64,000 bases of DNA, taken from NCBI GenBank assembly GCA_018894435.1, contig JAHIPI010000027.1, positions 1,552 to 65,551 on the forward strand. Reading direction: 5' to 3'. Positions 11,271 through 47,767 of this stretch are shown one piece after another (the stretch's first letter is position 1; each line of letters starts with the position of its first letter). This stretch comes from Candidatus Omnitrophota bacterium. GTDB taxonomy: Bacteria; Omnitrophota; Gorgyraeia; JAHIPI01. The notes beneath the pieces are model-generated. The model was given only the letters and a program-made list of their open reading frames with translations, was not told the DNA's origin and did not search any database. A program made the translations under genes and the position numbers.

Positions 11271-11280
11271 ACAGCCCCCC

Positions 11281-14152: not shown

Positions 14153-14154
14153 TT

Positions 14155-14182
14155 GGGGTCAGACCCTCGTTATGTAAACTAC
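14155..14182 (+). repeat. REP unit (family A) GGGGTCAGACCCTCGTTATGTAAACTAC; single arm
   Basis: Fills the kdsD-kdsC junction; its CTA supplies the TAG stop of kdsD. Confidence 0.8.
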
Positions 14183-15138
14183 ACCAGCCCCGCTTTCAGT
14201 AGATCCTGCACGTCCAGAAGCCCTGCGGGCCGGCCCTTGCGGTCAACCACCGGCATTTCGTCTATCTTTTTGGACTGTAATATCCGAAGGGCGTCAATTG
14301 CCATGGCCTCTTCCCCGATAGTTATAGGGTTCTTTGTCATTACCTCTTTTACGCGCTTACGCGTAATATCGCCTTTCGCCCTCACCTGGCGCCTCAGGTC
14401 GCCGTCGGTAAATATGCCTCGCAATACGCCGCTTTTATCAACAATGCTCGCTGAACCTGCGCGGGCGCGCGTTATCTTCAATAAAATTTCTCTCACCAGC
14501 TCGTCTTCACGCGCCACGGGATTAGCATCGCCCTTTCGCATTATGTCTTTCACCCTCAAAAGAAGCCGCTTGCCTAAATTGCCGCCGGGATGGTAGAGCG
14601 CAAAATGTTCTATTTTGAAACCTTTTTTCGCCTGCACCGCCACAGATAGCGCATCGCCCATCGCGAGCATAACGGTCGTGCTCGTAGTAGGAGCAAGCCC
14701 GAACGGGCACGCCTCTTTATTTATGCCGACATTCAGGACGCAGTCCGCGTTTCTCGCGAGCGTGGAAGACACATTGCCAACCATCGCAATAAGCGTGGCT
14801 CCTATCCGCTTTACAATCGGCAGTAAACTTATTATCTCCTCTGTCTCGCCGCTATTGGATATAGCTATAAGGCAGTCGTTCTTTGTAACTCTGCCAAGGT
14901 CGCCGTGCAGCGCCTCCGCGGGATGCAAATAAATGCTCGGCGTCCCCGTTGATGAGAAAGTCGCGGATATCTTCTGCGCTATAAATCCGGGTTTTCCCAT
15001 GCCGGTTACTATTACGTGGCCCTTTGTCTTCAGGACGATTTTTACCGCCTTCACAAAATTTGAATCTATCCTTTTTATGAGGTCTTGTATGGCTTTTGCT
15101 TCTATTTTCAGCACTTCTTTGGCTTTTTTTATCGACAT
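14179..15138 (-). CDS. kdsD: Arabinose-5-phosphate isomerase (SIS plus tandem CBS domains)
   Basis: GHVIVTGMGKPGFIAQKISATFSSTGTPSIYLHPAEALHGDLG; the C-terminal half has CBS-domain character. Confidence 0.85.
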   Translation of the reverse strand: MSIKKAKEVLKIEAKAIQDLIKRIDSNFVKAVKIVLKTKGHVIVTGMGKPGFIAQKISATFSSTGTPSIYLHPAEALHGDLGRVTKNDCLIAISNSGETEEIISLLPIVKRIGATLIAMVGNVSSTLARNADCVLNVGINKEACPFGLAPTTSTTVMLAMGDALSVAVQAKKGFKIEHFALYHPGGNLGKRLLLRVKDIMRKGDANPVAREDELVREILLKITRARAGSASIVDKSGVLRGIFTDGDLRRQVRAKGDITRKRVKEVMTKNPITIGEEAMAIDALRILQSKKIDEMPVVDRKGRPAGLLDVQDLLKAGLV

Positions 15139-15151
15139 AACCCCTCTTTAT

Positions 15152-15206
15152 GGGGTCAGACCCTCGTTATGTTAACTACGTAGTTTACATAATCAGGGTC
15201 TGACCC
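15152..15206. repeat. REPIN: inverted doublet of family-A REP units forming a palindrome of about 55 bp
   Basis: ggggtcagaccctcgttatgttaactac|gtagtttacataatcagggtctgaccc. Encodes the last codons (IRVRP) and the stop of kdsA. Confidence 0.85.
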
Positions 15207-16017
15207 TAATGACCTTCTCTATTTTTTTCATTTTTTCAAGTATCGCCGGCAATTCCGCCAAAGGCAGCATATTCGGGCCGTCGCATGGAGCCTTGTCCGG
15301 CGCTTCGTGTACCTCTACAAATATGCCGTCTACGCCAACCGAGATAGCCGCATAAATAAGCGGCTCTATAAAACGCCTCTCCCCGCCGCTTGCCGCCCCA
15401 AGTGAGCCCGGCAGCTGTACCGAATGGCTCGCATCATAAATAACCGGTACCCCGAACCCCCGCATTATCAAAATGGAGCGAAAATCACTCACAAGATTAT
15501 TGTATCCGAATATCGTGCCGCGTTCTGTGATTATTACTTTATTATTACCCGCGGAGGCGGCCTTTTCTATAGAGTGCTTCATGTCCCACGGAGAAAGGAA
15601 CTGCCCCTTCTTTATATTCACTATTCTTTTCGTCTTTGCCGCCGCTATTATAAGGCTGGTCTGCCTTGAAAGAAGCGCCGGTATCTGCAAAATATCGAGG
15701 ACCTCGCCCGCTCTTTTCGCCTCTTCTTCCGTATGCACGTCGCTCAGGATAAATACGCCGAGCGAGTCCTTCACCTTCTTCAGTATCTTAAGGCCTTTAT
15801 CTATGCCCGGCCCCCTGTAAGATTTAACTGATGTCCTGTTTGCCTTGTCATAACTCGATTTAAATATAAAAGGCACCTTCGCTTTATCGGTAATCTTCTT
15901 GAGCCGTTCAGCGTGGCGCATCGTGCTTTTTTCGTCTTCTATGACACACGGCCCGGCTATTAAAACAGCGGGATTGTTGCCGCCTATTTTTATTTTGCCC
16001 AAAGTAACTACGTTCAT
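15193..16017 (-). CDS. kdsA: 2-dehydro-3-deoxyphosphooctonate aldolase (KDO-8-P synthase)
   Basis: LIAGPCVIEDE...FKSSYDKANRTSVKSYRGPG. Confidence 0.9.
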   Translation of the reverse strand: MNVVTLGKIKIGGNNPAVLIAGPCVIEDEKSTMRHAERLKKITDKAKVPFIFKSSYDKANRTSVKSYRGPGIDKGLKILKKVKDSLGVFILSDVHTEEEAKRAGEVLDILQIPALLSRQTSLIIAAAKTKRIVNIKKGQFLSPWDMKHSIEKAASAGNNKVIITERGTIFGYNNLVSDFRSILIMRGFGVPVIYDASHSVQLPGSLGAASGGERRFIEPLIYAAISVGVDGIFVEVHEAPDKAPCDGPNMLPLAELPAILEKMKKIEKVIRVRP

Positions 16018-18875: not shown

Positions 18876-18880
18876 GCTAT

Positions 18881-19924: not shown

Positions 19925-19930
19925 ATTTTT

Positions 19931-19962
19931 AGCTATCAGCTATCAGCTCTCAGCTATCAGCT
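19931..19962. repeat. Family-B heptamer-repeat arm (AGCTATC)n, left inverted repeat of the four-helix-bundle cassette
   Basis: agctatcagctatcagctctcagctatcagct. Encodes the last residues (ADS) and the stop of the four-helix-bundle gene. Confidence 0.7.
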
Positions 19963-20315: not shown

Positions 20316-20331
20316 ATCTAATTCCTATTAT

Positions 20332-20364
20332 AGCTGATGACTGACGACTGAAAGCTGACAGCTC
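20332..20364. repeat. Family-B heptamer-repeat arm, right inverted repeat of the four-helix-bundle cassette
   Basis: agctgatgactgacgactgaaagctgacagctc; its reverse complement is agctgtcagctttcagtcgtcagtcatcagct. Confidence 0.7.
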
Positions 20365-21334: not shown

Positions 21335-21343
21335 AACATGCTT

Positions 21344-21391
21344 GGGGTCAGACCCTGATTATGTTAACTACGTTTCTTGGGGTCTGACCCC
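21344..21391 (+). repeat. REP (family A) with a shortened inverted arm
   Basis: ggggtcagaccctgattatgttaactacgtttcttggggtctgacccc. Encodes the C-terminal LGSDPKKRS of the upstream GT4-GT9 gene. Confidence 0.8.
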
Positions 21392-23532
21392 AGATACCCT
21401 TCTTCCTCAATCACCTTCATAACATCTTCCGGTGTAACGGCAGCCATGCACCTATTCTCGCGGCAGGTCATATCATAACAAGGAACTGAACAACCAATAT
21501 CTTTCTGTATCACCGTATAATTGTCTCCGCCGTAAGGGCCGGTTATGGCCGGATCCGTCGGCCCGAATATCGCTATCGTGCCGGTATGCATGCTTACAGA
21601 TATATGCATAGGCCCGGAATCCCCGGAGATAACGAGTTTGGCTCTTTCAAATATAGCCGCCATCTCCCTTATCGCAGTCCTTCCGCATAAAGATACCGTC
21701 TTATGGCGCATCGCTTTAGATATTTCTTCGGCCAGTTTCTCGTCTTTTCTGCCTCCGCTTATCACTATCTTTACACCGTATTTCTCCCGAAGCCGGTCGC
21801 CCAATAAGGAGAAATGCTCTACGGGCCACCTCTTAGGATCCCAGTTACCGCCCGGATTCAACACCACAAAACGCTCATTTGTGTTTATGCCCAGGGACTG
21901 TAAGAGCGCTTCGACTTTTTTTCTGTCAATATCCGTTATAAAAAACTCGTAATTCTTTTTAGAGGTATCCGCCCCTGCCGCTTCGGCCAATTTGAGGAAA
22001 TATTCCACTTTATGCATCCCGCACCCGCGCGCGGGCGCTGGATCGGATTGCTTCAGCTTCCCGGTCAGGATGCATCCTCTCCCTTTCGTGTCATAGCCAA
22101 TGCGCTCTTTTATCCCCGCCAAAAATGTAATGAATGCGCGTGTAAACGAACGGTGAAGTATAAAAGCTGTGTCAAAATGCTCTTTTCGCAGCTTCATTAT
22201 AAATCGGATCTTCCCCGCAATACCTCTTTCGCTCGCGTCTTCATCGAATATTATTAGTTCGTTAATACGCGAATTCGCCTCCAGCATCTCTTTCGTGCGC
22301 GGCACGACGACACAGGCGATGTAACTTTCAGGGTATGCCTCGCGGATAGCTCTTATGAACGGCGTGGAAAATATAACGTCGCCGAGCCAGTTCACGTTGA
22401 TGATTAATATTTTCTTCCGGGTTTTGGGTTTAGGGTTTATCACCTTTTTATATAAATTCTCGACTTTATCCGCCATCTTATCCAGCGTAAAGTCTCTCAA
22501 CACCTCTTCCCTTGCTTTTTCGCCAAGTGCGGACATCGTCTTCTTATCATTTAATAAATCTACGATCTTCCGGGCAAGGTCTTCGGCGTCGCCCACATTA
22601 AAAAGGATGCCGTTTTTCTTATCCTTTATAACATTCTCTATGCCGCCGACTCGACTCGCGATGCACGGTTTCGCCGAAGCCATCGCTTCCAAAAGCGAAA
22701 GGCCAAGACCTTCCTTCACCGAGGGTAAAATGAAAATATCCATAACTGAAAGCGGCTTTTTTGTGTCTTTTGCGCTTTTCGAAAATACTACATTGTCGCC
22801 GATGCCGAGTGTATCCGCAATTTTCCGCAGCCTCTTCTCGTCGGGGCCGTCACCGACCATCAATACCTTGAGAGACGGCACGCTGTCCGATACCCTGCTT
22901 GCCGCTTTAAGCAGTACCTCCTGGCCTTTCACAGGCGAAAGCCTGCCTATTGTGCCTATCACAGGGCCTTGGGCTTGGAACCCCAGTTCTTTTTTCTCCT
23001 TTATTTTATCGGCGTCAGCTATATCCCTGCGAAAATATTCGGTATCTATGCCGGTATATATAAGTTCCACTCTATCTTCCGGTAATTTGAAGTCATCCAT
23101 GAGATGCTGCTTTACCGCTTCGCTTATCGCTATCACTTTCACGCCCCAGGCTCCGTACAAGATCCTTCCCAGGCGGGTTTTAAAATAACCGTGACAAGTA
23201 GTAATATAAGGTACGCCCGTAGCGCGTGAGGTAAGGGCGGCCACTACCGCCGTAACCCTTGTATGCGCGTGTATTAATTCTATATTTTCCCGCTTCACTA
23301 TATCTTTTACGGCAAAAAATGTTTTGATTATCTTCGGGCTCAGTTCCGATTTAGTTTTTATATCCAGGTGAAAATGGTTTATGCCGCTTTTGGAAAGTTC
23401 CCCTTCCAGATCACCGCCAGAAGAAGCCACGAAAATAACGTGATTTCTCGCCTTCATGGCCTTAGCCAGATTGGCGACATATACGCCTATCCCGCCGATA
23501 TTAATGTGTGTTGTTAAGTGCAATATGCGCAT
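21364..23532 (-). CDS. Bifunctional glycosyltransferase: N-terminal GT4 (GT-B, EX7E) fused to a C-terminal GT9 heptosyltransferase-like domain
   Basis: N-terminus MRILHLTTHINIGGIGVYVANL...EGLGLSLLEAMASAKPCIAS. C-terminus KILIINVNWLGDVIFSTPFIRAIREAYPESYIACVV. Confidence 0.75.
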   Translation of the reverse strand: MRILHLTTHINIGGIGVYVANLAKAMKARNHVIFVASSGGDLEGELSKSGINHFHLDIKTKSELSPKIIKTFFAVKDIVKRENIELIHAHTRVTAVVAALTSRATGVPYITTCHGYFKTRLGRILYGAWGVKVIAISEAVKQHLMDDFKLPEDRVELIYTGIDTEYFRRDIADADKIKEKKELGFQAQGPVIGTIGRLSPVKGQEVLLKAASRVSDSVPSLKVLMVGDGPDEKRLRKIADTLGIGDNVVFSKSAKDTKKPLSVMDIFILPSVKEGLGLSLLEAMASAKPCIASRVGGIENVIKDKKNGILFNVGDAEDLARKIVDLLNDKKTMSALGEKAREEVLRDFTLDKMADKVENLYKKVINPKPKTRKKILIINVNWLGDVIFSTPFIRAIREAYPESYIACVVVPRTKEMLEANSRINELIIFDEDASERGIAGKIRFIMKLRKEHFDTAFILHRSFTRAFITFLAGIKERIGYDTKGRGCILTGKLKQSDPAPARGCGMHKVEYFLKLAEAAGADTSKKNYEFFITDIDRKKVEALLQSLGINTNERFVVLNPGGNWDPKRWPVEHFSLLGDRLREKYGVKIVISGGRKDEKLAEEISKAMRHKTVSLCGRTAIREMAAIFERAKLVISGDSGPMHISVSMHTGTIAIFGPTDPAITGPYGGDNYTVIQKDIGCSVPCYDMTCRENRCMAAVTPEDVMKVIEEEGYLGSDPKKRS

Positions 23533-23549
23533 AAATCTCCGGGGTCGCT

Positions 23550-23605
23550 GGGGTCAGACCCTCGTTATGTTAACTACGTAGTTTACATAATCAGGGTCTG
23601 ACCCC
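23550..23605. repeat. REPIN palindromic doublet (family A)
   Basis: ggggtcagaccctcgttatgttaactacgtagtttacataatcagggtctgacccc. Translated as the C-terminal tail LGSDPDYVNYVVNITRV of the upstream ORF. Confidence 0.85.
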
Positions 23606-25710
23606 AAATACTTCTCCACCGCTTTTAGCACTTCATCCGCTTTTATGTTTTTCATGCAGCGGTTATTTTTCGGGCAAACGCTCTTATAGCACGGGCTGCA
23701 TTTGATATCGGATTTGAGGACAATGGAATTTTCTACTTTCGTCATGTGTCTTTCGGGATCCGTCGGTCCAAATAGCGCCACTACCGGCACGTTAACAGCC
23801 GCTGCTATATGAAGCGGCGCGCTATCAGTAGTCACATATACTTTAAAACGGCTTATGAGCGCCGCAAGCTGCATGATATTTGTCTTTCCCGCCGCTATTA
23901 TGGGCTTACTCGCCGATAGTTTCGCCGCTTCTTTTGCCGGGGCAATATCCAGAGCTGCGCCGGTAAACACCGCCCTTATATCATGTTTCTTCGCAAGCGC
24001 GTCGCATAGTTCGGCTATTTCTTCGACGGGCCATCTCTTCGACTGCCATCTCGTACTCGCGGCTACATTTATGCCCACAAGAACATGCCTTTCGTCTACC
24101 CAGTTTTGTCTCAGAAAGTCATCCACCCATTCATAGTCCTCTTTTTTAGGCCAGAGCTGCGGCACTTCATCTTTTCTGTCTATACCGAGCATTGCGAGCG
24201 CCCTAAACTGATGCATTACCGGTTCGGCCGGTACTACGGAATCTTTGATCTTTTTATTTAAAAAGATGCTCCATTTACCGTTATCATAGCCATACCTTAA
24301 ATTTGCCATAGTCAGAAGTGAAAGAAGGTGGCTCGTCCTATTGTTCTGCAAATCCACGACTATGTCGAAATCTTCCTTTCTCAAACGTCCTGCCAATTTT
24401 AAAAGCCCCTTCCATGTCTTATCTCTGTTATCCGGTTCGAATATTATCCTCTCGTTTATGTACGGACAGCTCTCAAGCACACTGCTTGATGCTTCGCCGA
24501 CCAGCATCTTTATCACGGCTTCGGGAAATTTTTTCCGTATCGCCTGTAATGAAGGGATGGATAAGATCACATCGCCGAGAGCGCTCAGCTTAATAACCAG
24601 TATCTTCCTAAGTTTTATAGCATCCTCATAGACTTTCACGGTCTTCTCCGCCATGGAAGTGAGAGAATATTTATCCTCGACATCCTTTCGCGCCCGGGCG
24701 GCAATAGACCGGGCCAATCCGTTGTCCTTAAAAAGCCTCGTTATAGCTTCTGCTATGGAGTGCGGGTCTTCGGGAAATACCAATAAGCCGTTTTCTCCGT
24801 CGCGGATTATATCGGTTACCCCGCCTACCCGCGTAGCCACTACCGGCACGCCTACCGCCTGCGCTTCTATAATAACCCTGCCAAACGCCTCCGGTGCCCG
24901 CGTCGGCAGGACAAGCACATCAAGTTTAGACAATATCTGGGGGATATCCGTCCTCTGGCCCATAAATTCCACGACGCTGCTTATCCCTAACTGCCTTGTG
25001 AGGGCCTCAAGCTCTTCTCTGTATCTGGGTTTGGAATGCGGGGCGTCGCCGACTACCAGCAATTTTACATTCGGCATTTTTCTGAATATCATCGCTACCG
25101 CCCTGAAAAGATCCGCATGGCCTTTTAGCGGCGTTATTCTTGAGACTACGCCTATAATAAAATCTTTTTTCCGAGGGCTCTTCTCGCCTGCCGCGGCATC
25201 GATCTGTTTTAAGAATCTGAATTCGTCGAGATTGACTCCGCGCGGTATCAGCCTTATTCTGTCGTAGGGCGTAGCGAAATCTTTCATCATGTGCTCGGCC
25301 ATATCGCGGCTTGCTACTATTACAAACCTTCCCCAGCTCATGGGCCTTGAAAAAAGCCCGGTGTTATAATAACCGTGCGCTGTGGTTATAAATATCCTTT
25401 TAGTCAGTTTTGCCGCTCCTGAGCCAATTATAGCCGGCACCCTGCTTCTTGCGTGAACTATATCTATGTCTTCCTCTAATATGATCTTCGCCACTTTTCG
25501 TATCATCATTATAACGGTGACGGGAGATTTTTTCCCTACCGGAAGCGTGTAATGTTTAGAGCCTTCTTTCCGAAGGCGCTTTACGAGCCCGCCGCCACCT
25601 GATATCACGACGGATTTATGGCCCTTTTGGACGAGATAGCCGGCCAAATCTACCGCTCCGCGCTCCACACCCCCCACTTCCAGCTCTGGTAATATCTGTA
25701 GTATGTTCAT
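23554..25710 (-). CDS. Second bifunctional GT4-GT9 glycosyltransferase (paralog of 21364..23532)
   Basis: N-terminus MNILQILPELEVGGVERGAVDLAGYL...FGRVIIEAQAVGVPVVAT. C-terminus KILVIKLSALGDVILSIPSLQAIRKKFPEAVIKMLV. Confidence 0.75.
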   Translation of the reverse strand: MNILQILPELEVGGVERGAVDLAGYLVQKGHKSVVISGGGGLVKRLRKEGSKHYTLPVGKKSPVTVIMMIRKVAKIILEEDIDIVHARSRVPAIIGSGAAKLTKRIFITTAHGYYNTGLFSRPMSWGRFVIVASRDMAEHMMKDFATPYDRIRLIPRGVNLDEFRFLKQIDAAAGEKSPRKKDFIIGVVSRITPLKGHADLFRAVAMIFRKMPNVKLLVVGDAPHSKPRYREELEALTRQLGISSVVEFMGQRTDIPQILSKLDVLVLPTRAPEAFGRVIIEAQAVGVPVVATRVGGVTDIIRDGENGLLVFPEDPHSIAEAITRLFKDNGLARSIAARARKDVEDKYSLTSMAEKTVKVYEDAIKLRKILVIKLSALGDVILSIPSLQAIRKKFPEAVIKMLVGEASSSVLESCPYINERIIFEPDNRDKTWKGLLKLAGRLRKEDFDIVVDLQNNRTSHLLSLLTMANLRYGYDNGKWSIFLNKKIKDSVVPAEPVMHQFRALAMLGIDRKDEVPQLWPKKEDYEWVDDFLRQNWVDERHVLVGINVAASTRWQSKRWPVEEIAELCDALAKKHDIRAVFTGAALDIAPAKEAAKLSASKPIIAAGKTNIMQLAALISRFKVYVTTDSAPLHIAAAVNVPVVALFGPTDPERHMTKVENSIVLKSDIKCSPCYKSVCPKNNRCMKNIKADEVLKAVEKYLGSDPDYVNYVVNITRV

Positions 25711-25713
25711 TTT

Positions 25714-25808
25714 CAGCTTTCAGCTTTCAGCTCTCAGCTTTCAGCTGCCAATTTACCTGACCACAATCAGGTTTATAGCTGATAGCTGACGGCTGACGAC
25801 TGAAAGCT
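25714..25808. repeat. Family-B heptamer palindrome: (CAGCTTT)4CAGCTG, a 29-bp spacer that itself contains a hairpin, then the inverted heptamer arm; an 'empty' copy of the cassette ends
   Basis: cagctttcagctttcagctctcagctttcagctg ccaatttacctgaccacaatcaggtttat agctgatagctgacggctgacgactgaaagct. Occupies the whole intergenic gap. Confidence 0.75.
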
Positions 25809-25811
25809 TAA

Positions 25812-27761
25812 TTAAACTATCCTTTTCACTGCCTCGTATATTTTTTCGTTATCGTTCAAACGCTTCGGCTCTTCGTCCGAATCCATAAGCCCTACAATAT
25901 TGTCTTTCAGGTCTTTTACTTCCGAGAGGCAGATATGCCCTTTGGAGGCCATCTTTTTAAGGAACAGCTCGTGCTTGTTCGCTGCCGGCGCCGAGAGTTT
26001 TTTGTTCGGTTTAAACGCTATAACGTGTTTGCCGGAACTCGCCGCCTCCGAAAGCATGGAAGTCGATTCGCCCGAAACTACCACGACCGAAGACGCGCCC
26101 AATATCCCGCCAATGGCCCATTCAGGATTGCGCTCAGCGGATATTATAACAAGCTTTGCAAGTTCATCTTTTCCGAGTTTCGTCTTTAGGAGATTGTTTA
26201 CCTCATTACTCGTCCTTCTTGATGTGGTCGCGAGTATGTTTGCGTCAAGTTCATGTGCTGCGCCGAGCACTTTTTCAATCACATCTTCCACAAGCGCCTT
26301 GTCCAGCGAATAATTCTTATTGTCCCCGCCTATGAATAACCCTATATTTTCCTTATTGCCGAGTTCCGCGATCCTCTCCAGCTGCTTCAGGTCATCGGCC
26401 ATCTTTTTTTGCGATATCAAATTGGGCATGCCGAGCGTCTTTACAATATTTTCTCTTTCGGCGGGCCTGTCGTGTTCCGGTATTATGTTTATGTCAAAAT
26501 TGCGCACTGATAAAAGCGACGGTTTCATAAGCGCGATGCTTTTTGCGCAGTTTTCCCTGCTGAAGAGGATGTTTACGGCCGCCACGCGCGATCCGCATGA
26601 TATCACTATGTCGGCGTAAGCACTTTTTATCTCGTCATAACATTTAGGATCCAAAACAAGATTGAGCAGCTTCATCCTGAACAAGCAATAATTTGAAATA
26701 AGGGGCGTGATTAAAGCGGCAAGGGTCCTTCCGAAATCACTTTTATACGTTATCTCTATCACCCTTTTTTCGGTATCGCGCTCGGTATAGCCGAATTCGC
26801 GCCGCGATTCTTTTATCTTCTCGAAGACGGCAAGCGATTGATTTAAATGGCCCGCCCTGCCGTCTGTTAAAATAACCACCTTCCTCAAAGGTGTAGATTT
26901 CCATCTTTTATGAAGCCAAAGCCACTGCTCAGGGCTTTTCCTTACAAATGATTCCAAGAGAGAGCCGAATCTCTGCATTGCTTCAAGCTCGTTAGCTTCC
27001 ATGTCGCCTTCACTGCTGAGTGCTATGGGTTTCTCTATAAATATTGTATGGTAAGGACCGTCCCTTCTTACGACAAATGCCGGCACTATGAGGGCACCCG
27101 TCTTTCTCGCCAGCGCGAAAGCGCCTCTCGGACTGGAAGTAGGCCTCGCGAAGAAATTTATAAATACCCCCTTTTTGCCGGCGTCCTGATCGGAGAGGAT
27201 CCCGACTATGCCGTTTCTCGCGAGGTGCTCGTATATCTCCCTTGTTGCCATGCCTTTTTTTATGACCTTGCAGCCCTTGCTTTCTCTGGCGGCATTTAAA
27301 AGGTTGTTCAACCGCGTCATCTTCTGTTCCCTCGCAAGCACAAAAAGAGGAAAGCCTCTTAGCGCGCTCGCGATACTGGAAAGTTCCCAGTTTCCAAAAT
27401 GACCCGTAAGGTATATGGTGCCGCGGCCAAGTTTAGCCGCGCTTTCAAAATTATGCCAACCCTCCACTTTTATATATTTCTCAAAATAGTCCTTGTCAAC
27501 GTCGGGCAATCTCAAGATTTCCACAAGCATTTGGCCAAAATTCCTATATAGGCGCTTAACGGTACGCCGTATCTCTTCGGGCTCCTTTTCCGAGCCGAGC
27601 GCCGCGCGCATATTGGAATACGCCACCTTCGCCCTCTTGTAATTTACAAAATATGCGATACTGCCAAAGCCGCGGCCAAACGCCAAAGCGGTATCTACGG
27701 GAAGTATCCTGAAAAGCGCGCTTGCAAAATTAGCTATTAAATAAAGAACGTAATCGAGCAA
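25812..27761 (-). CDS. Fusion protein: N-terminal lipid A lauroyl/myristoyl acyltransferase (LpxL/HtrB family) plus C-terminal ELM1/DUF1022-like domain
   Basis: N-terminus ...YSNMRAALG...YLTGHFGNWELSS (LPLAT/LpxL motifs). C-terminal half begins VVILTDGRAGHLNQSLAV, recalled as the signature N-terminus of the ELM1-like family. Confidence 0.6.
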   Translation of the reverse strand: MLDYVLYLIANFASALFRILPVDTALAFGRGFGSIAYFVNYKRAKVAYSNMRAALGSEKEPEEIRRTVKRLYRNFGQMLVEILRLPDVDKDYFEKYIKVEGWHNFESAAKLGRGTIYLTGHFGNWELSSIASALRGFPLFVLAREQKMTRLNNLLNAARESKGCKVIKKGMATREIYEHLARNGIVGILSDQDAGKKGVFINFFARPTSSPRGAFALARKTGALIVPAFVVRRDGPYHTIFIEKPIALSSEGDMEANELEAMQRFGSLLESFVRKSPEQWLWLHKRWKSTPLRKVVILTDGRAGHLNQSLAVFEKIKESRREFGYTERDTEKRVIEITYKSDFGRTLAALITPLISNYCLFRMKLLNLVLDPKCYDEIKSAYADIVISCGSRVAAVNILFSRENCAKSIALMKPSLLSVRNFDINIIPEHDRPAERENIVKTLGMPNLISQKKMADDLKQLERIAELGNKENIGLFIGGDNKNYSLDKALVEDVIEKVLGAAHELDANILATTSRRTSNEVNNLLKTKLGKDELAKLVIISAERNPEWAIGGILGASSVVVVSGESTSMLSEAASSGKHVIAFKPNKKLSAPAANKHELFLKKMASKGHICLSEVKDLKDNIVGLMDSDEEPKRLNDNEKIYEAVKRIV

Positions 27762-30983: not shown

Positions 30984-31009
30984 GTAGAGGACATTTAAAC
31001 GTCCTCTAC
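30984..31009. repeat. GTAG-hairpin (family D): GTAGAGGACA-TTTAAA-CGTCCTCTAC
   Basis: Contains the last four codons and the stop of topA. Related to the hairpin at 52148 with compensatory base changes. Confidence 0.6.
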
Positions 31010-33028
31010 TCCTGTGGACAACTTATTGTCGGGCGTATCTTTTGAGGGCAGAGTACGGGAGACATAGCGGCACGCGGGAAACTTGGTACAGCCGTAAAAG
31101 GCCCCCCTCGAGGAGCGCCTTTCCACAAGCTCTCCTCGGCAATCAGGCTGGGGGCATTTCACTCCGGTGGTAATAGATTTGGCATTCTTGCAGCGGGGGA
31201 AGTCGGAACAGCTTAAGAATTTTCCCTTTCTGCCCCACTTTATCACCATCGGCTTGCCGCATTTATCGCATACCTCGTTCGTAGGCGTATTGATATTCTT
31301 AATGCTCTTCATGTCCTTCTGAGCCTTTTCGAACGCTATTTTAAACGGCGAGTAGAAATCCCTTAGGACCTTAAGCCATTCTATCTTTCCCTCCTCCACC
31401 TCGTCCAGCTCCTCTTCAAGATAAGCGGTAAATTTTATATCCAACACTTTCGGAAAATGCTTGGTTAAAAGCTCTGTCACCACCATGCCCAATTCTGTCG
31501 GGTAGAGATAGCCCTTTTCCCTTTTAACATAATTGCGTAAGGTAATAGTCGAGATAATAGGGGCATATGTGCTGGGGCGGCCTATGCCTTTTTCTTCAAG
31601 CTCTTTTACCAAAGAAGCGTCGGAGAACCTCGGCGGAGGGTTTGTAAAATGCTGCGACGGGTCCAACTTAATAAGTACCAATAATTCTTTTTCCTGTAAG
31701 TGCGGCAGGGTGTTAGTTTCTTTGTCAGTATCATGGTATAGGGCGGTAAAGCCGTCAAAAAGGACCTTGGTGCCGCTTGCCCTGAATATACATTTGCCCG
31801 CTTCTATATCTGCGCTGACAACGAGATTAAGCGCCGGTTCCATCTGGCTCGTGACGAACCTCGTCCATATAAGCTCGTACAATTTATGCTGAGCGCTCGA
31901 GAGATGCTCCTTTATGGCATCCGGTTCGTGAAGAGGCAAACTTGGCCTGATAGCTTCATGCGCCTCCTCGGCGCTCTTTTTTGATTTGTATTTATTGGGT
32001 GCCGCCGGGCAGTATTTTTTCCCGAATTTTTTTGTAATATACTCCCGCACCTCGTTCTCTGCTTCTTTGGACACGTTGACGGAATCGGTCCTCATATAAG
32101 TTATGAGCCCTGCGGCTTCTTCCTTACCCAGCTCTATACCTTCGTAGAGTTCCTGCGCCACTTTCATTGTTTTGCCAACCGAAAATCCGAGTTTATTAAA
32201 CGCGTCCTGCTGCATTTTGCTCGTGGTATAAGGCGGGTACGGCGAACGCCTCTTTTTTATCTCCCTTACGCTCTTTACTATGAAGTTTTCTTCTTTAAGG
32301 CCGCCTATAATGGCTTCCGCTTCTTTTCCGGCCTTTAATTTCGATTCGTTGCCGTCTATCAATATCAATTTCGCCTTAAAGGGCCTCGTCTCCCCTTTGT
32401 CCGTTTCGGCGGCATCCGTAAGAGCGCCTCTCTTTTTTAGAAGGGCCTCTACTTCCCAATATTCCACCGGAATAAACGCCTTTATTTTTTGCTCCCGTTC
32501 GGCTACCAATCTGAGAGCCACCGACTGAACCCTGCCGGCGCTTAAACCCGAACCGACCTTCTTCCATAAAAGCGGGCTAAGGCTGTATCCGAGCACCCTG
32601 TCAAGTATCCTTCTTGCCTGTTGCGCGTTCACTTTGTTAATATCCAGTATGTGGGGATTTTTGAATGCCTCTTTTATCGCCCGTTCCGTTATTTCGTGGA
32701 AAGTGACGCGGTGGATCTTATCGTTTATTCCGGAAAGCTGGTCCCTCAGATGGTATGCTATCGCCTCGCCTTCTCTGTCAGGGTCCATCGCCAGGTAAAT
32801 ATCCTCCGTCTCCTTCGCGCCTTTTTTAAGCTCGGAAAGGATCTTGCGCCGTTTTGCCATAACTATATAACGGGGCTTGAAATCATTCTCAAGGTCAACG
32901 CCCATCTCGCTCTTCGGCAGGTCTATTACGTGCCCCATTGAAGAGAGGATAATGTAATCACTGCCTAAAAACTTGTTTATAGTTTTCGATTTTGTCGGCG
33001 ATTCGACCACTACCAGATGTTTTGCCAT
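30995..33028 (-). CDS. topA: DNA topoisomerase I with C-terminal zinc-ribbon repeats
   Basis: MAKHLVVVESPTKSKTINKFLG... TOPRIM; C-terminal Cys4 modules. Confidence 0.9.
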   Translation of the reverse strand: MAKHLVVVESPTKSKTINKFLGSDYIILSSMGHVIDLPKSEMGVDLENDFKPRYIVMAKRRKILSELKKGAKETEDIYLAMDPDREGEAIAYHLRDQLSGINDKIHRVTFHEITERAIKEAFKNPHILDINKVNAQQARRILDRVLGYSLSPLLWKKVGSGLSAGRVQSVALRLVAEREQKIKAFIPVEYWEVEALLKKRGALTDAAETDKGETRPFKAKLILIDGNESKLKAGKEAEAIIGGLKEENFIVKSVREIKKRRSPYPPYTTSKMQQDAFNKLGFSVGKTMKVAQELYEGIELGKEEAAGLITYMRTDSVNVSKEAENEVREYITKKFGKKYCPAAPNKYKSKKSAEEAHEAIRPSLPLHEPDAIKEHLSSAQHKLYELIWTRFVTSQMEPALNLVVSADIEAGKCIFRASGTKVLFDGFTALYHDTDKETNTLPHLQEKELLVLIKLDPSQHFTNPPPRFSDASLVKELEEKGIGRPSTYAPIISTITLRNYVKREKGYLYPTELGMVVTELLTKHFPKVLDIKFTAYLEEELDEVEEGKIEWLKVLRDFYSPFKIAFEKAQKDMKSIKNINTPTNEVCDKCGKPMVIKWGRKGKFLSCSDFPRCKNAKSITTGVKCPQPDCRGELVERRSSRGAFYGCTKFPACRYVSRTLPSKDTPDNKLSTGVEDV

Positions 33029-33048
33029 TAGGTTTCCTTTACGTGCTT

Positions 33049-33088
33049 GTCATTGCGGGCCCCGCCATGGCGGGGCGAAGCAATCTCA
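33049..33088 (+). repeat. Family-C palindromic element, plus orientation
   Basis: gtcattgcgggccccgccatggcggggcgaagcaatctc. Lies in the 157-bp hairpin-rich dprA-topA intergenic region. Confidence 0.55.
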
Positions 33089-39244: not shown

Positions 39245-39262
39245 TTATTTGCTCCTCCATCT

Positions 39263-39323
39263 AGCTTTCAGCTTTCAGTCTTCAGCTTTCAGCTGAGAGC
39301 TGACGGCTGATAGCTGATAGCTC
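39263..39323. repeat. Family-B heptamer palindrome, an 'empty' cassette copy filling the leuA-ilvC gap
   Basis: agctttcagctttcagtcttcagctttcagct g agagctgacggctgatagctgatagctc. Confidence 0.75.
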
Positions 39324-39324
39324 T

Positions 39325-40317
39325 CTACTTTTTCATCCAGGGCATCATTTCGCGCAGCTTCTTACCCACTGCCTCTATGGGATGTTCATCGCCCGCTTTT
39401 AAAAGCTTGTTAAAATTGGGCCGTCCCTCTTCGTTCTCCCTTATCCATTCGCGGGCAAACTTGCCGGATCGGATATCCTTCAACATCTTCTTCATTATTT
39501 TGCGGGTCTTTTCAGTTATAACCATGGGGCCGCGCGTAACATCGCCGTAGCAGGCCGTATTTGAAACCCTGCGCCTCATCCCGCTTATGCCGGTCTCCTG
39601 TATAAGATCGGTTATCAGTTTCAATTCGTGCAGGACTTCGAAGTATGCTATTTCCGGTTGATAACCCGCCTCTACCAGCGTGTCAAATCCTGCCTTGATC
39701 ATTTCGCTGACGCCTCCGCAAAGAACAGCCTGCTCTCCGAAAAGATCTGTTTCTGTCTCTTCAGAAAATGTAGTCTCAATAACGCCTGCCCGCGTTCCGC
39801 CTATCGCTTTAGCGTAAGCGAGCGCCAGTTTCATAGCATCACCGGTAGCGTCCTGATGAATGGCCACAAGGCATGGAACGCCTTTCCCTTCTTCGTACAT
39901 CTTTCTCACTAAAGCTCCCGGGCCTTTCGGCGCCACCATAAAGACATCTATCTTCTTACTCGGTTTTATCTGCTTGAATCTTATATTAAATCCGTGTGAA
40001 AAAACAAGCGCCTTTCCCTTGGTCATATACGGAGCTATGGATTCCTTGTAGACCTTCGCCTGCACGTGATCCTGCGTCAGTATCTGGACGATATCGGCCT
40101 GCTTTGCCGCTTCGGATGCGGATATAGGATTGAAGCCATCTTTTTTTGCCGTCTCATAATTCGGGCTCGCTTCTATTTCGCTCACTATGACATTGAGCCC
40201 GCTGTCGCGGAGGTTCAGCGCCTGGCCCCGGCCCTGTATGCCGTAGCCGATTATGGCGATCTTTTTATCCTTTAATATACTCGGGTCTGCATCGTTATCA
40301 TAGTAAATCTTCAGCAT
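39325..40317 (-). CDS. ilvC: Ketol-acid reductoisomerase (class I). The listed ORF extends to 40407, but its first 30 codons are REP-encoded; the probable start is the Met at 40317 ([11 protein letters not shown]), preceded by AAGGA
   Basis: [25 protein letters not shown]. Confidence 0.9.
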
Positions 40318-40342
40318 AATTATTTTCCTTTCTCGGTCTATC

Positions 40343-40395
40343 GGGGTCAGACCCTCGTTATGTAAACTACAAATATGTGCCGGGGGTCTGACCCC
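40343..40395 (+). repeat. REP (family A) with a 12-nt loop insert and an inverted arm
   Basis: ggggtcagaccctcgttatgtaaactac aaatatgtgccg ggggtctgaccccc. Confidence 0.8.
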
Positions 40396-40413
40396 CTCCC
40401 GCGGCACATATAA

Positions 40414-45516: not shown

Positions 45517-45527
45517 ATCATCCCTTT

Positions 45528-45574
45528 GGGGTCAGACCCTCGTTATGTAAACTACGATGGCCGGGGTCTGCCCA
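45528..45574 (+). repeat. REP (family A) between alr and tsaB; its inverted arm is degenerate
   Basis: ggggtcagaccctcgttatgtaaactacgatggccggggtctgccc. Encodes the C-terminal MGRPRPS of tsaB. Confidence 0.8.
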
Positions 45575-46274
45575 TGACATTGCAATCCCGCGCATACAAA
45601 TAAAGCGGCTCTAAATCGTACGGGTCGTCACGCTTACCGCTTTTAAACATCTCGAGCCCCAATTTGGCGATCACGCTCGCCTTGGGAAACCACCGATTAT
45701 CTTCGATAAACTTTGCCTTGATCGTCTTCTCTGCCATCAACTTATCTTTATATATAGCTATGCCGTCGCCTAGAAATAAAACATCTCCTTCTAACCGTTT
45801 CATCAGCCGCTCAACAGGCTCAAGCAAATAATCACTATTCCTTACAAGTCTATCACCATCTATGCGATAAATACAAGCGTAGACCTGACTTTTCTTTGCA
45901 TCCAGAATCGGTATTGGGGTCAGACCCCCATTATGTAAACTACGATGGCCGGAGTATAACTCCAAAGCATTATATGCTATTGCGTCCAGCGTCGGCACGC
46001 CAATTATGGGCTTATTTAATGCTATGGAAAAGGCCCTCATCGCCGTTACGCCTATCCTGAGACCCGTAAAAGAGCCGGGGCCCATACCGACGGCAAAAAG
46101 ATCGACGTCTTTGAGTTTCTTTCTGGCTTTCCTTAGCGCCTTTTGTATAGTCGGCACAAGAAGCGCCGAATGGCTAAGCCGGCCTATTGCGTTATAATCG
46201 GAGAGCACCTTATTACCGCTTATTACGCTTACCGTCAAAAATTCTGTAGACGTGTCTACGCCAAGTGTTATCAT
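45552..46274 (-). CDS. tsaB: tRNA threonylcarbamoyladenosine biosynthesis protein TsaB (YeaZ)
   Basis: MITLGVDTSTEFLTVSV...PILDAKKSQVYACIYR. Confidence 0.8.
   Translation of the reverse strand: MITLGVDTSTEFLTVSVISGNKVLSDYNAIGRLSHSALLVPTIQKALRKARKKLKDVDLFAVGMGPGSFTGLRIGVTAMRAFSIALNKPIIGVPTLDAIAYNALELYSGHRSLHNGGLTPIPILDAKKSQVYACIYRIDGDRLVRNSDYLLEPVERLMKRLEGDVLFLGDGIAIYKDKLMAEKTIKAKFIEDNRWFPKASVIAKLGLEMFKSGKRDDPYDLEPLYLYARDCNVMGRPRPS
45916..45956 (+). repeat. REP (family A) lying in-frame inside the tsaB coding sequence
   Basis: ggggtcagacccccattatgtaaactacgatggccggagt; translated on the minus strand as ...LHNGGLTPI... within TsaB. Confidence 0.7.
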
Positions 46275-46735
46275 AATTTCATCTTCTCGAGCATCTTTTC
46301 GTAACGTTTTCCATGGGCTTTCGCGCTAATTCTTCTTTTGCTCGAACCTGCGATATCGATATTTATCATAAGATATTCTTTCGGCAATGCCTCTTTCACT
46401 TTATCGGCCCATTCTACAACCGAGACACCTTTGCCGTAAAAATATTCATCATATCCGACGGTGGAAAACTGTAAAATATCTTTTAGTCGATAAACGTCAA
46501 AGTGGTAAAGAGGAATTCGCCCCTTATATTCCTTAAGAATTACAAAAGACGGGCTGTTTACATAGCTACTTTGTTTTACGCCTAAGCCTCTAGCAATCCC
46601 TTTAGTCAAAACCGTCTTGCCGCTTCCAAGCTGGCCCGAAAGCCCGACCACGTCTCCGGCCTTCAAACTTTTGCCGAGCCGTTTGCCGAAATTTATCGTC
46701 TCATCCCTGGTCTTAGAAACAAAACTTCGTGCCAT
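46271..46735 (-). CDS. tsaE: tRNA threonylcarbamoyladenosine biosynthesis ATPase TsaE (YjeE)
   Basis: VVGLSGQLGSGKTVLTKGIARGLGV. Confidence 0.85.
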   Translation of the reverse strand: MARSFVSKTRDETINFGKRLGKSLKAGDVVGLSGQLGSGKTVLTKGIARGLGVKQSSYVNSPSFVILKEYKGRIPLYHFDVYRLKDILQFSTVGYDEYFYGKGVSVVEWADKVKEALPKEYLMINIDIAGSSKRRISAKAHGKRYEKMLEKMKL

Positions 46736-46758
46736 TAAAATACCTAGCCCCCGCTAAT

Positions 46759-46800
46759 CTAACCTGGTTAGTCTAACCTGGTTAGATTTGTCAGGTTAGA
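46759..46800. promoter_or_regulatory. Tandem 13-bp near-palindromes CTAACCTGGTTAG x2 plus a partial CAGGTTAG; operator-like site upstream of tsaE
   Basis: ctaacctggttag tctaacctggttag atttgtcaggttaga. Confidence 0.35.
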
Positions 46801-47695
46801 AATGTCGATATCCTGCCGGCTTCAATCCGACTCTTTTTCCGCTCTTATCCACTATTGTGACGTTTTTGTATTCAGCAACAATCTCGCCTATCATACTAAC
46901 TCGAACACCAAGCTTTTTAGTCAATACTTTTTCATTCACATTGCCCGGCATCGTAAATAAGAGCTCGAAGTCTTCACCGTCGGTCAGTGCGCCCTTTAAG
47001 GACGAACCCTTGGAAATAGGAATGTCTTTTTCGTATATAAGCGCGCCGGTATTACTTGACTCGGCAATATGCCGCAAGTCTGATGATAGCCCATCCGAGA
47101 TATCTATCATAGCGTTGACTTTGAAATTTTTGACTAAAATCCTAGCTTCTTTGACTTTGGGAGTAAAATTATATTGCTTGACCTTTATGGATCCGCCTAA
47201 TCGCCCTGTGACATATATCTTGTCGCCTATTTTGGCGCCGCTGCGTTTAACTAAGCGGTGTTTTTCCACTTCCCCGACGACACAGACATCACAAATAAGC
47301 TTATCCGATTTATTAGTATCACCGCCGATAAGTTCCACTTTGTATTCCTTCGCTAATTTAACGAAACCCGCGTAAAAATCATCGACAACCTTAACCGGCA
47401 TGTTTGGCGGTAAACCGACCGATATAAGACAATATTTTGGAACTCCCCCCATAGCCGCAATATCACTCAAAGATACCGCTAATGCCTTTCTTCCGACTCT
47501 CTTTGGCCCGGCTTTTCTCAAATTAAAGTGGACGCCATCTATCAGCATGTCCACAGTTAGTAGAAGATACCTATCTTTTGTATAATCTATAACGGCGCAA
47601 TCATCGTCGATGCCCAAAACGGCGCTCTTCAGAGGTATCGCTTTCTTCTTTACTCTCTCTATTAAACCAAACTCGCCGAGCGTTTTTATCTTCAT
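46796..47695 (-). CDS. thiL: Thiamine-monophosphate kinase
   Basis: LGEFGLIERV...LGIDDDCAV... Confidence 0.8.
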   Translation of the reverse strand: MKIKTLGEFGLIERVKKKAIPLKSAVLGIDDDCAVIDYTKDRYLLLTVDMLIDGVHFNLRKAGPKRVGRKALAVSLSDIAAMGGVPKYCLISVGLPPNMPVKVVDDFYAGFVKLAKEYKVELIGGDTNKSDKLICDVCVVGEVEKHRLVKRSGAKIGDKIYVTGRLGGSIKVKQYNFTPKVKEARILVKNFKVNAMIDISDGLSSDLRHIAESSNTGALIYEKDIPISKGSSLKGALTDGEDFELLFTMPGNVNEKVLTKKLGVRVSMIGEIVAEYKNVTIVDKSGKRVGLKPAGYRHF

Positions 47696-47740
47696 GTGGC
47701 TTATTTTACCACTAATAATCCCATATTTGTAGCATAATTA

Positions 47741-47767
47741 GGGTCAGACCCCGATTATGTTAACTAC
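47741..47767 (+). repeat. REP (family A) abutting the 3' end of the RAYT gene
   Basis: gggtcagaccccgattatgttaactac; overlaps the last codons and stop of the RAYT. Confidence 0.8.

What the first reader, a model, noticed from the sequence alone, without database searches (positions are those of the whole stretch)
45916..45956. REP element in-frame inside the essential tsaB gene
A family-A REP (ggggtcagacccccattatgtaaactac...) lies within the tsaB ORF. It is read through in-frame as ...HRSLHNGGLTPIPILDAKKSQVY..., immediately before the conserved (I/V)LDA(R/K)...VY segment of TsaB/YeaZ. An in-frame 9-13-residue insertion into a surface loop of a universally conserved tRNA-modification protein is unusual. 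This copy is the variant ACTACGATGGCCGG also seen at 45528, 388 bp away, which suggests local duplication of the REP.
Basis: partly seen in the sequence, partly recalled or inferred. Interest (0 to 1): 0.5.

Follow-up and report, generated by a model that had tools for sequence, protein, structure and literature searches.

The report
REP repeat translated inside tsaB gene

Summary
Confirmed. Window 45915-45962 (minus strand, 48 nt, TsaB residues 105-120, ELYSGHRSLHNGGLTP) derives from a GTAG-tagged REP. The family has 11 loci in the window, and only this one is internal to a gene. A RAYT-type transposase gene (47760-48347), flanked by inverted REP units, lies 1.8 kb away.

The ORF is continuous and is TsaB on both sides of the insert. 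The REP is read in the only stop-free frame of that orientation.

Nine distinct TsaB clusters from related Omnitrophota carry the same peptide ([16 protein letters not shown]). In four of them the DNA junctions could be checked and are identical. Sister lineages have an unrelated lysine-rich loop, and distant TsaBs have a short loop. REP-bearing genes are under purifying selection (dN/dS 0.06-0.17).

The 30-nt REP core is the most conserved stretch of the gene, whereas the window's left hairpin arm has decayed. REP-bearing alleles are scattered on the TsaB tree and the gene is mosaic, so recombination probably spread the allele. The internal copy and the copy at the tsaB 3' end have exchanged sequence.

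Intragenic in-frame REPs and Rickettsia palindromic elements are already described, so this is a new member of a known kind. Interest is modest.

The parts
45915..45962 (-). REP-derived in-frame segment of tsaB: 48 nt, 16 codons, residues 105-120 (ELYSGHRSLHNGGLTP)
   Evidence: Codon alignment with L019, L020 and L023. Those genes carry an intact REP hairpin (GGGGTCAGACCC-spacer-CGTAGTTTACATAA.GAGGGTCTGACCCC) at identical junctions.
45916..45944 (-). Intact 29-nt REP core unit (CGTAGTTTACATAATGGGGGTCTGACCCC on the coding strand)
   Evidence: 2 mismatches to the family consensus. It is the least diverse 30-nt stretch of tsaB among 5 genomes.
45945..45962 (-). Spacer (CCGGCCAT) plus the decayed left hairpin arm (GGAGTTATACTCC, from GGGGTCAGACCCC)
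   Evidence: The hairpin is lost: RNA fold -15.6 kcal/mol (z -0.8), against -28 to -29.5 (z -4.9 to -6.2) in L019, L020 and L023.
45552..46274 (-). tsaB (240 aa), the host gene
   Evidence: PF00814 at 1.2e-25; TIGR03725 at 153 bits (cut-off 69); matches E. coli TsaB 4wq4_C at 5.6e-17.
45526..45573 (-). Second REP copy, overlapping the tsaB 3' end. It encodes the tail (G)RPRPS and supplies the TAG stop from its GTAG. It lies 9 nt upstream of the alr start codon.
47760..48347 (-). RAYT-type Y1 (HUH) transposase gene, 195 aa
   Evidence: PF01797 at 5.9e-16 (59 bits, cut-off 23). NF047646 REP_Tyr_transpos at 3.4e-20 (72.4 bits, cut-off 80), against IS200 at 22.7 bits. HUH motif NHIHLL and tyrosine motif RYIHRNP are present.
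47738..47767 (+). REP unit flanking the 3' end of the RAYT gene, overlapping its stop codon
48408..48437 (-). REP unit 60 nt upstream of the RAYT gene, inverted relative to 47738-47767
14153..14186 (+). REP family member, single unit, between genes
15150..15209 (.). REP head-to-head dimer; encodes the C-terminal tail of the kdsA-like gene
21342..21392 (+). REP hairpin (unit plus second arm); encodes the tail LGSDPKKRS* of a glycosyltransferase
23548..23607 (.). REP head-to-head dimer; encodes the 17-residue tail LGSDPDYVNYVVNITRV* of a glycosyltransferase
40341..40396 (+). REP hairpin, intergenic between ilvN and ilvC
49133..49162 (-). REP single unit, intergenic
49891..49920 (-). REP single unit, translated as the C-terminal tail (S)[10 protein letters not shown] of the mtnA-like gene

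Best explanation
A GTAG-tagged REP element of the genome's own REP/RAYT system became embedded in the variable loop of TsaB, between helix alpha3 of the N-terminal domain and the first strand of the C-terminal domain.

In this orientation two of the three reading frames hit stop codons (TAG/TAA and TGA). The copy sits in the third frame, so the ribosome reads through it. The result is a 16-residue loop (ancestrally [16 protein letters not shown], in which both hairpin arms are translated as GSDP and GLTP). This loop takes the place of the lysine-rich loop seen in sister lineages.

The insert is a tolerated passenger: TsaB stays under purifying selection. The event is old. The same insert at the same junctions occurs in several Omnitrophota lineages separated by dS above 1. 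Its patchy distribution is best explained by homologous recombination moving the loop allele between lineages (inferred). The 30-nt core is kept close to the family consensus, most likely by gene conversion from other REP copies, including the one 388 bp downstream (inferred).

In the window's copy the left arm has decayed, so the hairpin is gone. It is probably an immobile relic.

Shown: identity, frame, orthology, conservation and mosaicism. Inferred: the insertion mechanism (RAYT-mediated), the recombination and conversion history, and functional neutrality.
For: - Family and transposase: there are 11 REP loci, and 10 of them lie outside genes or at gene 3' ends. The RAYT gene has HUH and Tyr motifs and is flanked by inverted units.
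- In-frame read-through: shown.
- Same insert elsewhere: the peptide occurs in 9 TsaB protein clusters. The DNA junctions are identical in L002, L019, L020 and L023.
- Loop states in relatives: REP-free relatives have a lysine-rich or short loop. E. coli TsaB has an 8-residue gap at this point.
- Selection: dN/dS is 0.06-0.17 at dS 1.1-2.2 between the divergent REP-bearing lineages (0.37 for window vs L002).
- Structure: in the AF2 model (mean pLDDT 87) the insert lies between helix 95-106 and strand 119-125, where pLDDT drops to 67-76. It is outside helices alpha1 and alpha2, which form the TsaB-TsaD interface (PMC6009658).
- Core conservation: pi is 0.05 against 0.219 for the gene, and none of 696 windows is lower. 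Third codon positions are invariant in 9 of 10 core codons against 54 of 220 elsewhere (Fisher p = 2e-4). Flanking third positions differ by 27-57%.
- Mosaicism: downstream of the loop, 0 sites against 10 support the window grouping with L021, compared with 36 against 24 elsewhere (p = 3e-4).
- Copy-to-copy exchange: the L019 internal and 3' copies are identical over 45 nt, including lineage-specific bases. The window's two copies share the spacer CCGGCCAT.
- Hairpin loss: seen in the window and in L002.
- Synteny: the RAYT gene is syntenic in the window, L019 and L020. The REP-free L021 has neither a RAYT gene nor any REP unit in 13.4 kb.
Against: - L002 keeps the internal REP but has no RAYT gene at the syntenic site. 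A RAYT is therefore not needed to retain the copy.
- The REP takes the place of the lysine-rich segment (16 codons for 11-16) instead of adding to it. A simple transposition does not predict that; extra deletions or a template-switch origin must be assumed.
- P0009 and P0015 have a different left junction (AYNGYQxL before the REP). More than one insertion event therefore remains possible.
- The evidence for gene conversion rests on very few diagnostic nucleotides.
- No experiment shows that the protein is made or active, or that this RAYT moves these REPs.
- The exact window protein is seen only in one NCBI MAG and one Logan contig, which may come from the same reads.
Confidence: 0.8

Rival explanations
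1. Recurrent, independent, site-specific insertion. Each lineage that carries this RAYT has separately placed a fresh REP into the same tsaB site, because the site matches the transposase's target. That would make every copy young and close to consensus.
For: REP-bearing TsaBs fall in 4 separate, well-supported subclades next to REP-free sisters (bootstraps 85-100). The core is near-consensus although the flanks are diverged at synonymous sites. P0009 and P0015 have a different left junction. A different palindromic element occupies the same junction in P0010 (L025). The 5' flanks of the internal and 3' copies share TAATG.TT. Y1 transposases of the IS200/IS605 family are known to be target-sequence specific (established knowledge). 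Different REPs lie at about the same site in the recB genes of two Xanthomonas species (PMC3733652).
Against: The junctions are identical to the nucleotide, and the lysine-rich segment is missing in the same way in each lineage. Independent insertion does not predict that. The internal copies of the window, L002 and L019 share the non-consensus base AATG (consensus AACG), which suggests common descent. tsaB is demonstrably mosaic, so recombination offers a simpler route. L002 has the copy but no local RAYT gene.
Confidence: 0.15
2. The embedded REP core has been co-opted by the host, either as a DNA or RNA element (for example an mRNA processing or stability site, or a protein-binding site within the thiL-tsaE-tsaB-alr gene array) or as a useful peptide loop. 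It would then be conserved by selection rather than by conversion.
For: The core is the most conserved 30 nt of the gene, including synonymous sites. In intergenic copies the same unit sits directly upstream of the ribosome-binding sites of downstream genes. The peptide is conserved in 9 clusters. The insert lies 5 residues before the DA(K/R)..VY motif, which lines the tRNA C34 pocket in T. maritima TsaB (PMC13276492).
Against: Sister lineages function with an unrelated loop. The hairpin arm decays freely in the window and L002, and the whole element has decayed in P0015. The three substitutions within the core are all non-synonymous, so there is no sign of peptide-level constraint. No Rfam family matches the region. 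There are no expression data.
Confidence: 0.05
3. Artefact: a chance match, or a mis-assembly that collapsed or joined contigs at a repeat.
For: MAG contigs often break at repeats; Logan contig L001 ends exactly in the 3' REP.
Against: The 37-nt match has a chance expectation of 0. The ORF is collinear with TsaB on both sides. The same structure appears in independent samples and assemblers from NCBI, ENA and Logan.
Confidence: 0.01

Closest known systems
Intragenic GTAG/CGTC REPs (Di Nocera, De Gregorio & Rocco 2013, PMC3733652)
   Same: These are short GTAG-tagged palindromic repeats associated with RAYT genes. They are mostly extragenic, near gene 3' ends, and often supply the TAG stop codon. 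A minority lie wholly inside ORFs and are translated, mostly as dimers. The highest numbers were reported in Opitutus terrae (PVC superphylum, which Omnitrophota are usually placed in or near, from general knowledge). tRNA-related enzymes are among the decorated proteins.
   Different: Here the host gene is tsaB and the phylum is Omnitrophota, neither mentioned in the parts of that paper read here (its table of intragenic REPs, Additional file 3, was not consulted). The unit is atypical: the GTAG tag is separated by 12 nt from a 13-nt self-palindrome. The insert is followed across several species-level lineages, with evidence for nucleotide-level conservation, mosaic spread and arm decay.
Rickettsia palindromic elements (RPE) inserted in frame in protein-coding genes (Ogata et al. 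2000, from my own knowledge; reviewed in PMC10969869)
   Same: A palindromic repeat is inserted in frame into housekeeping genes, translated as an extra peptide segment, and judged compatible with the protein fold.
   Different: The first-described RPEs are about 150 bp, lack an identified transposase, and are inserted in many genes of one genome. Here the element is 48 nt, a cognate RAYT gene is adjacent, and only one of 11 loci in 64 kb is internal.
REPIN/RAYT systems of Pseudomonas and E. coli (Bertels & Rainey 2011; Nunvar et al. 2010; Ton-Hoang et al. 2012 - from my own knowledge)
   Same: A single RAYT gene is flanked by inverted REPs. Units occur as singlets and as inverted doublets that can form long hairpins. 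Family homogeneity is maintained within a genome.
   Different: Mobility and RAYT activity are untested here. REPINs are described as essentially extragenic.

Membership tests
REP/RAYT system (GTAG-type REP, 'REPtron') | Short repeated unit with a palindrome and a conserved GTAG tetranucleotide at one end | tested here: met
   The 29-nt unit is CGTAGTTTACATAACGAGGGTCTGACCCC, with GTAG at one end and the palindrome GGGGTC(A/T)GACCCC at the other. The 12-nt gap between tag and palindrome is atypical.
REP/RAYT system (GTAG-type REP, 'REPtron') | Multi-copy, predominantly extragenic, close to gene 3' ends, frequently in inverted dimers | tested here: met
   There are 11 loci in 64 kb, 10 of them outside genes or at gene 3' ends. 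Two are head-to-head dimers and three are unit-plus-second-arm hairpins. Seven overlap the 3' end of the upstream gene; six of these also contain its stop codon.
REP/RAYT system (GTAG-type REP, 'REPtron') | A Y1 (HUH) tyrosine transposase gene flanked by REPs in inverted orientation | tested here: met
   ORF 47760-48347 matches PF01797 at 59 bits (cut-off 23). HUH (NHIHLL) and Tyr (RYIHRNP) motifs are present. REP units lie at 47738 (+) and 48408 (-).
REP/RAYT system (GTAG-type REP, 'REPtron') | The transposase belongs to the RAYT subfamily rather than IS200 | tested here: inconclusive
   NF047646 REP_Tyr_transpos scores 72.4 bits, just under its curated cut-off of 80, but far above IS200 (22.7 bits, cut-off 55). 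No PDB relative was found by sequence.
REP/RAYT system (GTAG-type REP, 'REPtron') | RAYT binds, cleaves or mobilises its REPs | not testable with these tools
   Needs biochemistry or genetics.
In-frame intragenic palindromic element (intragenic REP / RPE-like) | The element lies wholly inside an ORF of known function, with the frame preserved and no stop codon | tested here: met
In-frame intragenic palindromic element (intragenic REP / RPE-like) | Orthologues without the element exist and align across the site | tested here: met
   P0005, P0008, P0011 and P0012 have a lysine-rich loop; P0048-P0117 and E. coli have a short loop.
In-frame intragenic palindromic element (intragenic REP / RPE-like) | The insert sits in a loop compatible with the fold and away from essential interfaces | tested here: inconclusive
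   In the AF2 model the insert lies between helix 95-106 and strand 119-125, with pLDDT 67-76. It is not in helices alpha1 or alpha2 of the TsaB-TsaD interface (PMC6009658). The distance to the tRNA and TsaE surface was not measured, and the DA(K)..VY pocket motif starts 5 residues later (PMC13276492).
In-frame intragenic palindromic element (intragenic REP / RPE-like) | The decorated protein is expressed and functional | not testable with these tools
   Indirect support only: dN/dS is 0.06-0.17 in REP-bearing genes.
TsaB (T6A_YeaZ) | Scores above the curated family cut-off, with the conserved GPGSFTGLR and DA(K/R)..VY motifs | tested here: met
   TIGR03725 scores 153 bits (cut-off 69). The motifs are invariant in the alignment. 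The gene follows tsaE in a thiL-tsaE-tsaB-alr array.

The most novel reading that the evidence does not exclude
The tsaB alpha3-beta loop may be a fixed landing pad where palindromic elements are repeatedly inserted, overwritten and refreshed. REP-A is kept near consensus across lineages separated by dS above 1. A second, unrelated palindromic element sits at the same junction in P0010, and a decayed REP-A in P0015. If this reflects RAYT-dependent, site-specific targeting or REP-to-REP gene conversion acting inside an essential coding sequence, it would give a natural, phylogenetically resolved record of how REPs move and are maintained. That mechanism is still unproven for any REP family.
Probability: 0.15. 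Interest if true: 0.6.

Novelty: new member of a known kind. Interest (0 to 1): 0.33.

Why it matters
The finding shows that a REP/RAYT system is active, or was recently active, in Candidatus Omnitrophota. It also shows that a REP can persist for a long time inside a gene that is essential in most bacteria studied, tolerated as a surface-loop replacement just upstream of a tRNA-contacting motif.

The set of REP-bearing, decayed, replaced and REP-free alleles of one orthologous site is a convenient natural series. It could be used to study REP turnover, gene conversion and recombination, and how much sequence change that TsaB loop tolerates.

It does not change what is known about REPs in principle. 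For annotation, it warns that REP-encoded loops and C-terminal tails are common in these genomes: at least five genes in this window end in REP-encoded residues.

Tried and rejected
- The metagenome-contig scan with the clade alignment chose generic TsaB patterns. It returned only distant (30-41% identical) TsaBs and no new members of the REP-bearing clade.
- A search of the protein database with the three stop-free REP translations found nothing (3 candidates, none scored). The frequency of in-frame REP-A insertions in other proteins could therefore not be measured.
- No DNA was available for P0009, so its different left junction could be judged only at protein level.
- The genome-contig scan found just one close relative, L002.
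- Rfam at a permissive threshold found no RNA family at the REPs.
- A PDB sequence search with the RAYT found nothing.
- I considered that the L021 loop might be a very decayed REP-A and rejected it: about 25% identity in register, and the loop is homologous to the lysine-rich loops of outgroups.
- I considered that low divergence of the REP core might simply reflect a young recombination tract and rejected it as a full explanation: adjacent codons differ at 27-57% of third positions.

Full report
**Observation**

The window is from a Candidatus Omnitrophota MAG. Its closest relative in the genome collection is L002 (JAZDNG010000041.1), whose flanking genes are 94-99% identical in protein.

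The ORF 45552..46274 on the minus strand encodes a 240-aa TsaB. It matches PF00814 at 1.2e-25 and TIGR03725 at 153 bits (cut-off 69), and E. coli TsaB 4wq4_C at 5.6e-17. It lies in a thiL-tsaE-tsaB-alr array.

The reported 37-nt string is at 45916-45952. Its only other match at up to 3 mismatches is at 45528-45564; none is expected by chance.

**The repeat family**

The unit is about 29 nt: CGTAGTTTACATAACGAGGGTCTGACCCC on the gene strand. A GTAG tag sits at one end and the self-palindrome GGGGTC(A/T)GACCCC at the other.

The family has 11 loci in the window (15 core hits against 0.34 expected). They occur as single units, as head-to-head dimers, or as a unit plus a second arm that closes a long hairpin.

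Ten loci lie between the unidirectional minus-strand genes. Seven of these overlap the 3' end of the upstream gene. They encode C-terminal tails such as MGRPRPS*, LGSDPKKRS*, LGSDPDYVNYVVNITRV* and [11 protein letters not shown]. In six of the seven the stop codon also lies inside the repeat; the mtnA-like stop falls 2 nt beyond it.

ORF 47760-48347 is a Y1/HUH transposase. It scores 59 bits on PF01797 and 72.4 bits on NF047646 (REP-associated tyrosine transposase), just under that model's cut-off of 80; IS200 scores only 22.7. The motifs NHIHLL and RYIHRNP are present. REP units in inverted orientation flank the gene at 47738 and 48408. Calling the repeat a REP is therefore justified.

**The internal copy**

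On the coding strand two of the three frames of the unit are closed, by TAG/TAA and by TGA. The tsaB copy sits in the open frame.

Comparison with relatives shows that the REP-derived segment is 48 nt: window 45915-45962, residues 105-120. In L019, L020 and L023 the orthologous site carries a complete hairpin, TTGGGGTCAGACCC-spacer-CGTAGTTTACATAA.GAGGGTCTGACCCC. It is translated as [16 protein letters not shown], so both arms are read, as GSDP and GLTP. The junctions are identical to those in the window.

In the window the left arm has decayed to GGAGTTATACTCC. In L002 it has decayed independently to GGTATCAGGCCCC.

The predicted RNA hairpin is strong in L019, L020 and L023 (-28 to -29.5 kcal/mol, z -4.9 to -6.2). 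It is lost in the window (-15.6, z -0.8) and in L002 (-14.2, z -1.1).

There is no frameshift. The exact protein also occurs on a Logan contig that is identical in DNA.

**Orthologue comparison**

Nine distinct 90%-identity clusters of TsaB carry the REP peptide.

Sister lineages at similar identity (P0005, P0008, P0011, P0012) have an unrelated lysine-rich loop, for example GYQHLKKKKELSKNIRIC. That loop is homologous to the loops of more distant Omnitrophota TsaBs, so it is the ancestral state. Still more distant TsaBs, and E. coli, have a short loop.

The REP therefore takes the place of the variable segment (16 codons for 11-16) rather than simply adding to it.

**Structure**

In an AF2 model (mean pLDDT 87) the segment lies between helix 95-106 and strand 119-125, where pLDDT drops to 67-76. 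The REP-encoded C-terminal tail has pLDDT below 50.

The TsaB-TsaD interface uses helices alpha1 and alpha2 (PMC6009658), which the insert does not touch. The DA(K/R)..VY motif that begins 5 residues after the insert lines the pocket for tRNA wobble nucleotide C34 in T. maritima TsaB (PMC13276492). I could not measure the distance from the loop to that surface.

**Selection and conservation**

REP-bearing tsaB genes are under purifying selection: dN/dS is 0.06-0.17, at dS 1.1-2.2 between the divergent REP-bearing lineages (0.37 for window vs L002).

Against that background the 30-nt REP core is the least diverse stretch of the whole gene (pi 0.05 against 0.219; none of 696 windows is lower). 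Third codon positions are invariant in 9 of 10 core codons against 54 of 220 elsewhere. Among amino-acid-invariant codons the figures are 7 of 7 against 39 of 138 (Fisher p = 2e-4). Codons immediately flanking the REP differ at 27-57% of third positions.

The core is therefore held near the family consensus at the nucleotide level.

**Evolutionary history**

On a neighbour-joining tree of TsaB with the loop removed, REP-bearing proteins fall in four supported subclades, each next to REP-free sisters (bootstraps 85-100), all inside one clade with 98% support.

L021 is REP-free. It has no RAYT gene at the syntenic site and no REP unit in 13.4 kb. Yet in alr, ilvD and ilvB it is closer to the window than the REP-bearing L019 and L020 are.

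tsaB is mosaic. In the roughly 130 nt downstream of the loop, no site groups the window with L021 and 10 sites group it with L019 and L020. Elsewhere the counts are 36 and 24 (Fisher p = 3e-4). L002 also has a tract nearly identical to L021.

I therefore favour one or a few old insertions whose loop allele was spread by homologous recombination. Recurrent site-specific insertion cannot be excluded. P0009 and P0015 keep GYQxL before the REP, which is a different left junction.

**The copy at the tsaB 3' end**

This copy (45526-45573) is present in the window, L019 and L023 but absent in L002 and L020.

In L019 the internal and 3' copies are identical over 45 nt, including bases that distinguish internal-type from 3'-type copies in other genomes. 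In the window the two copies share the spacer CCGGCCAT.

It also offers a mechanism for keeping the core near consensus.

**Site reuse**

In P0010 (L025) a different 87-nt palindromic element, GGGGACGTTCCC...GGGAACGTCCC, lies between the same flanks (AATGTTTTGGGG... and ...CCCTACAATATGCCC). P0015 (L022) carries a strongly decayed REP-A, with each arm matching at 10 of 13 positions. L021 has its own 8-bp hairpin in the loop. These observations were only partly followed up.

**Comparison with what is known**

GTAG REPs that supply TAG stops, and REPs lying wholly inside ORFs and translated, were catalogued by Di Nocera et al. (PMC3733652). That catalogue includes many in the PVC bacterium Opitutus terrae, and different REPs at about the same site in the recB genes of two Xanthomonas species. 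In-frame Rickettsia palindromic elements are the classic case (PMC10969869).

This finding is thus a new member of a known kind. It adds a new host gene and phylum, and a useful comparative series.

**Verdict**

The most likely mechanism is a tolerated passenger REP maintained by conversion and spread by recombination. Interest is modest.

Noticed in passing
window 13631-50921 (REP loci listed under parts): At least five genes end in REP-encoded residues: kdsA-like IRVRP*, two GT4-GT9 glycosyltransferases LGSDPKKRS* and LGSDPDYVNYVVNITRV*, tsaB MGRPRPS*, and mtnA-like [14 protein letters not shown] translation at C-termini is therefore common in this genome.
   Followed up: partly
window 47760-48347 vs L019:7971-8522 and L020:8019-8588: The RAYT protein is 90-92% identical between genomes whose neighbouring thiL, tsaE and tsaB are only 73-77% identical. 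It is absent from the syntenic site in the much closer L002 and in L021. This suggests either strong constraint or recent horizontal movement of the RAYT.
   Followed up: partly
L025:861-965 (tsaB of P0010): A different palindromic element of about 87 nt (arms GGGGACGTTCCC / GGGAACGTCCC, RNA fold -64.6 kcal/mol for the loop region) lies in frame at the same junction as REP-A. It encodes GTFPKVAPFTTSLSNMKSKGVPGGNVP.
   Followed up: partly
L022:2240-2300 (tsaB of P0015); L021:8300-8350: The P0015 loop (RPGPILCQYTVKGPAP) looks like a decayed REP-A of the same length. The REP-free L021 loop contains its own perfect 8-bp hairpin, GGGACAGCGGCAGCTGTCCC.
   Followed up: partly
window 18849-18878, 30984-31013, 52148-52177; L002:10709-10735: A second GTAG-tagged palindrome family (GTAG-GGGACG-TTTAAA-CGTCCC-CTAC and variants) lies after genes. 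In L002 one of these sits at the tsaB stop codon, exactly where the window has REP-A.
   Followed up: no
window 46741-46802: Two tandem copies of the palindrome CTAACCTGGTTAG, plus a third partial copy, lie in the tsaE-thiL intergenic region. This is operator-like. There is only a spurious weak Rfam hit (mir-1420, 26 bits against a gathering score of 70).
   Followed up: no
window 5488-7608: Six to seven tandem 336-nt (112-codon) repeats at 61-85% identity, presumably a repetitive domain array in a large protein.
   Followed up: no
window 19911-19970, 20328-20369, 25709-25814, 39257-39328: Intergenic arrays of a 7-nt motif (AGCT[AT]TC / CAGCTNT) occur in both orientations at several gene junctions.
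   Followed up: no
window 11231-11271 and 33048-33088: A 41-nt inverted repeat pair (TGAGATTGCTTCGTCCCGCCAAGGCGGGACTCGCAATGACA, 90% complementary), each copy containing a GC-rich hairpin. This is another dispersed palindromic element.
   Followed up: no
L002:8380-8630: At the site where the window has the RAYT gene, L002 has two direct repeats of about 87 nt starting AAAGGGGACGTTTCACTTTAAC, followed by an inverted copy of the GGGGACGTTTCAC motif.
   Followed up: no
window 45552-47695 vs L002: thiL, tsaE, tsaB and mtnA are 78-86% identical to L002, while all other shared genes are 88-99% identical. The region around the RAYT and tsaB is unusually diverged, or recombinant, between the two closest genomes.
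   Followed up: partly
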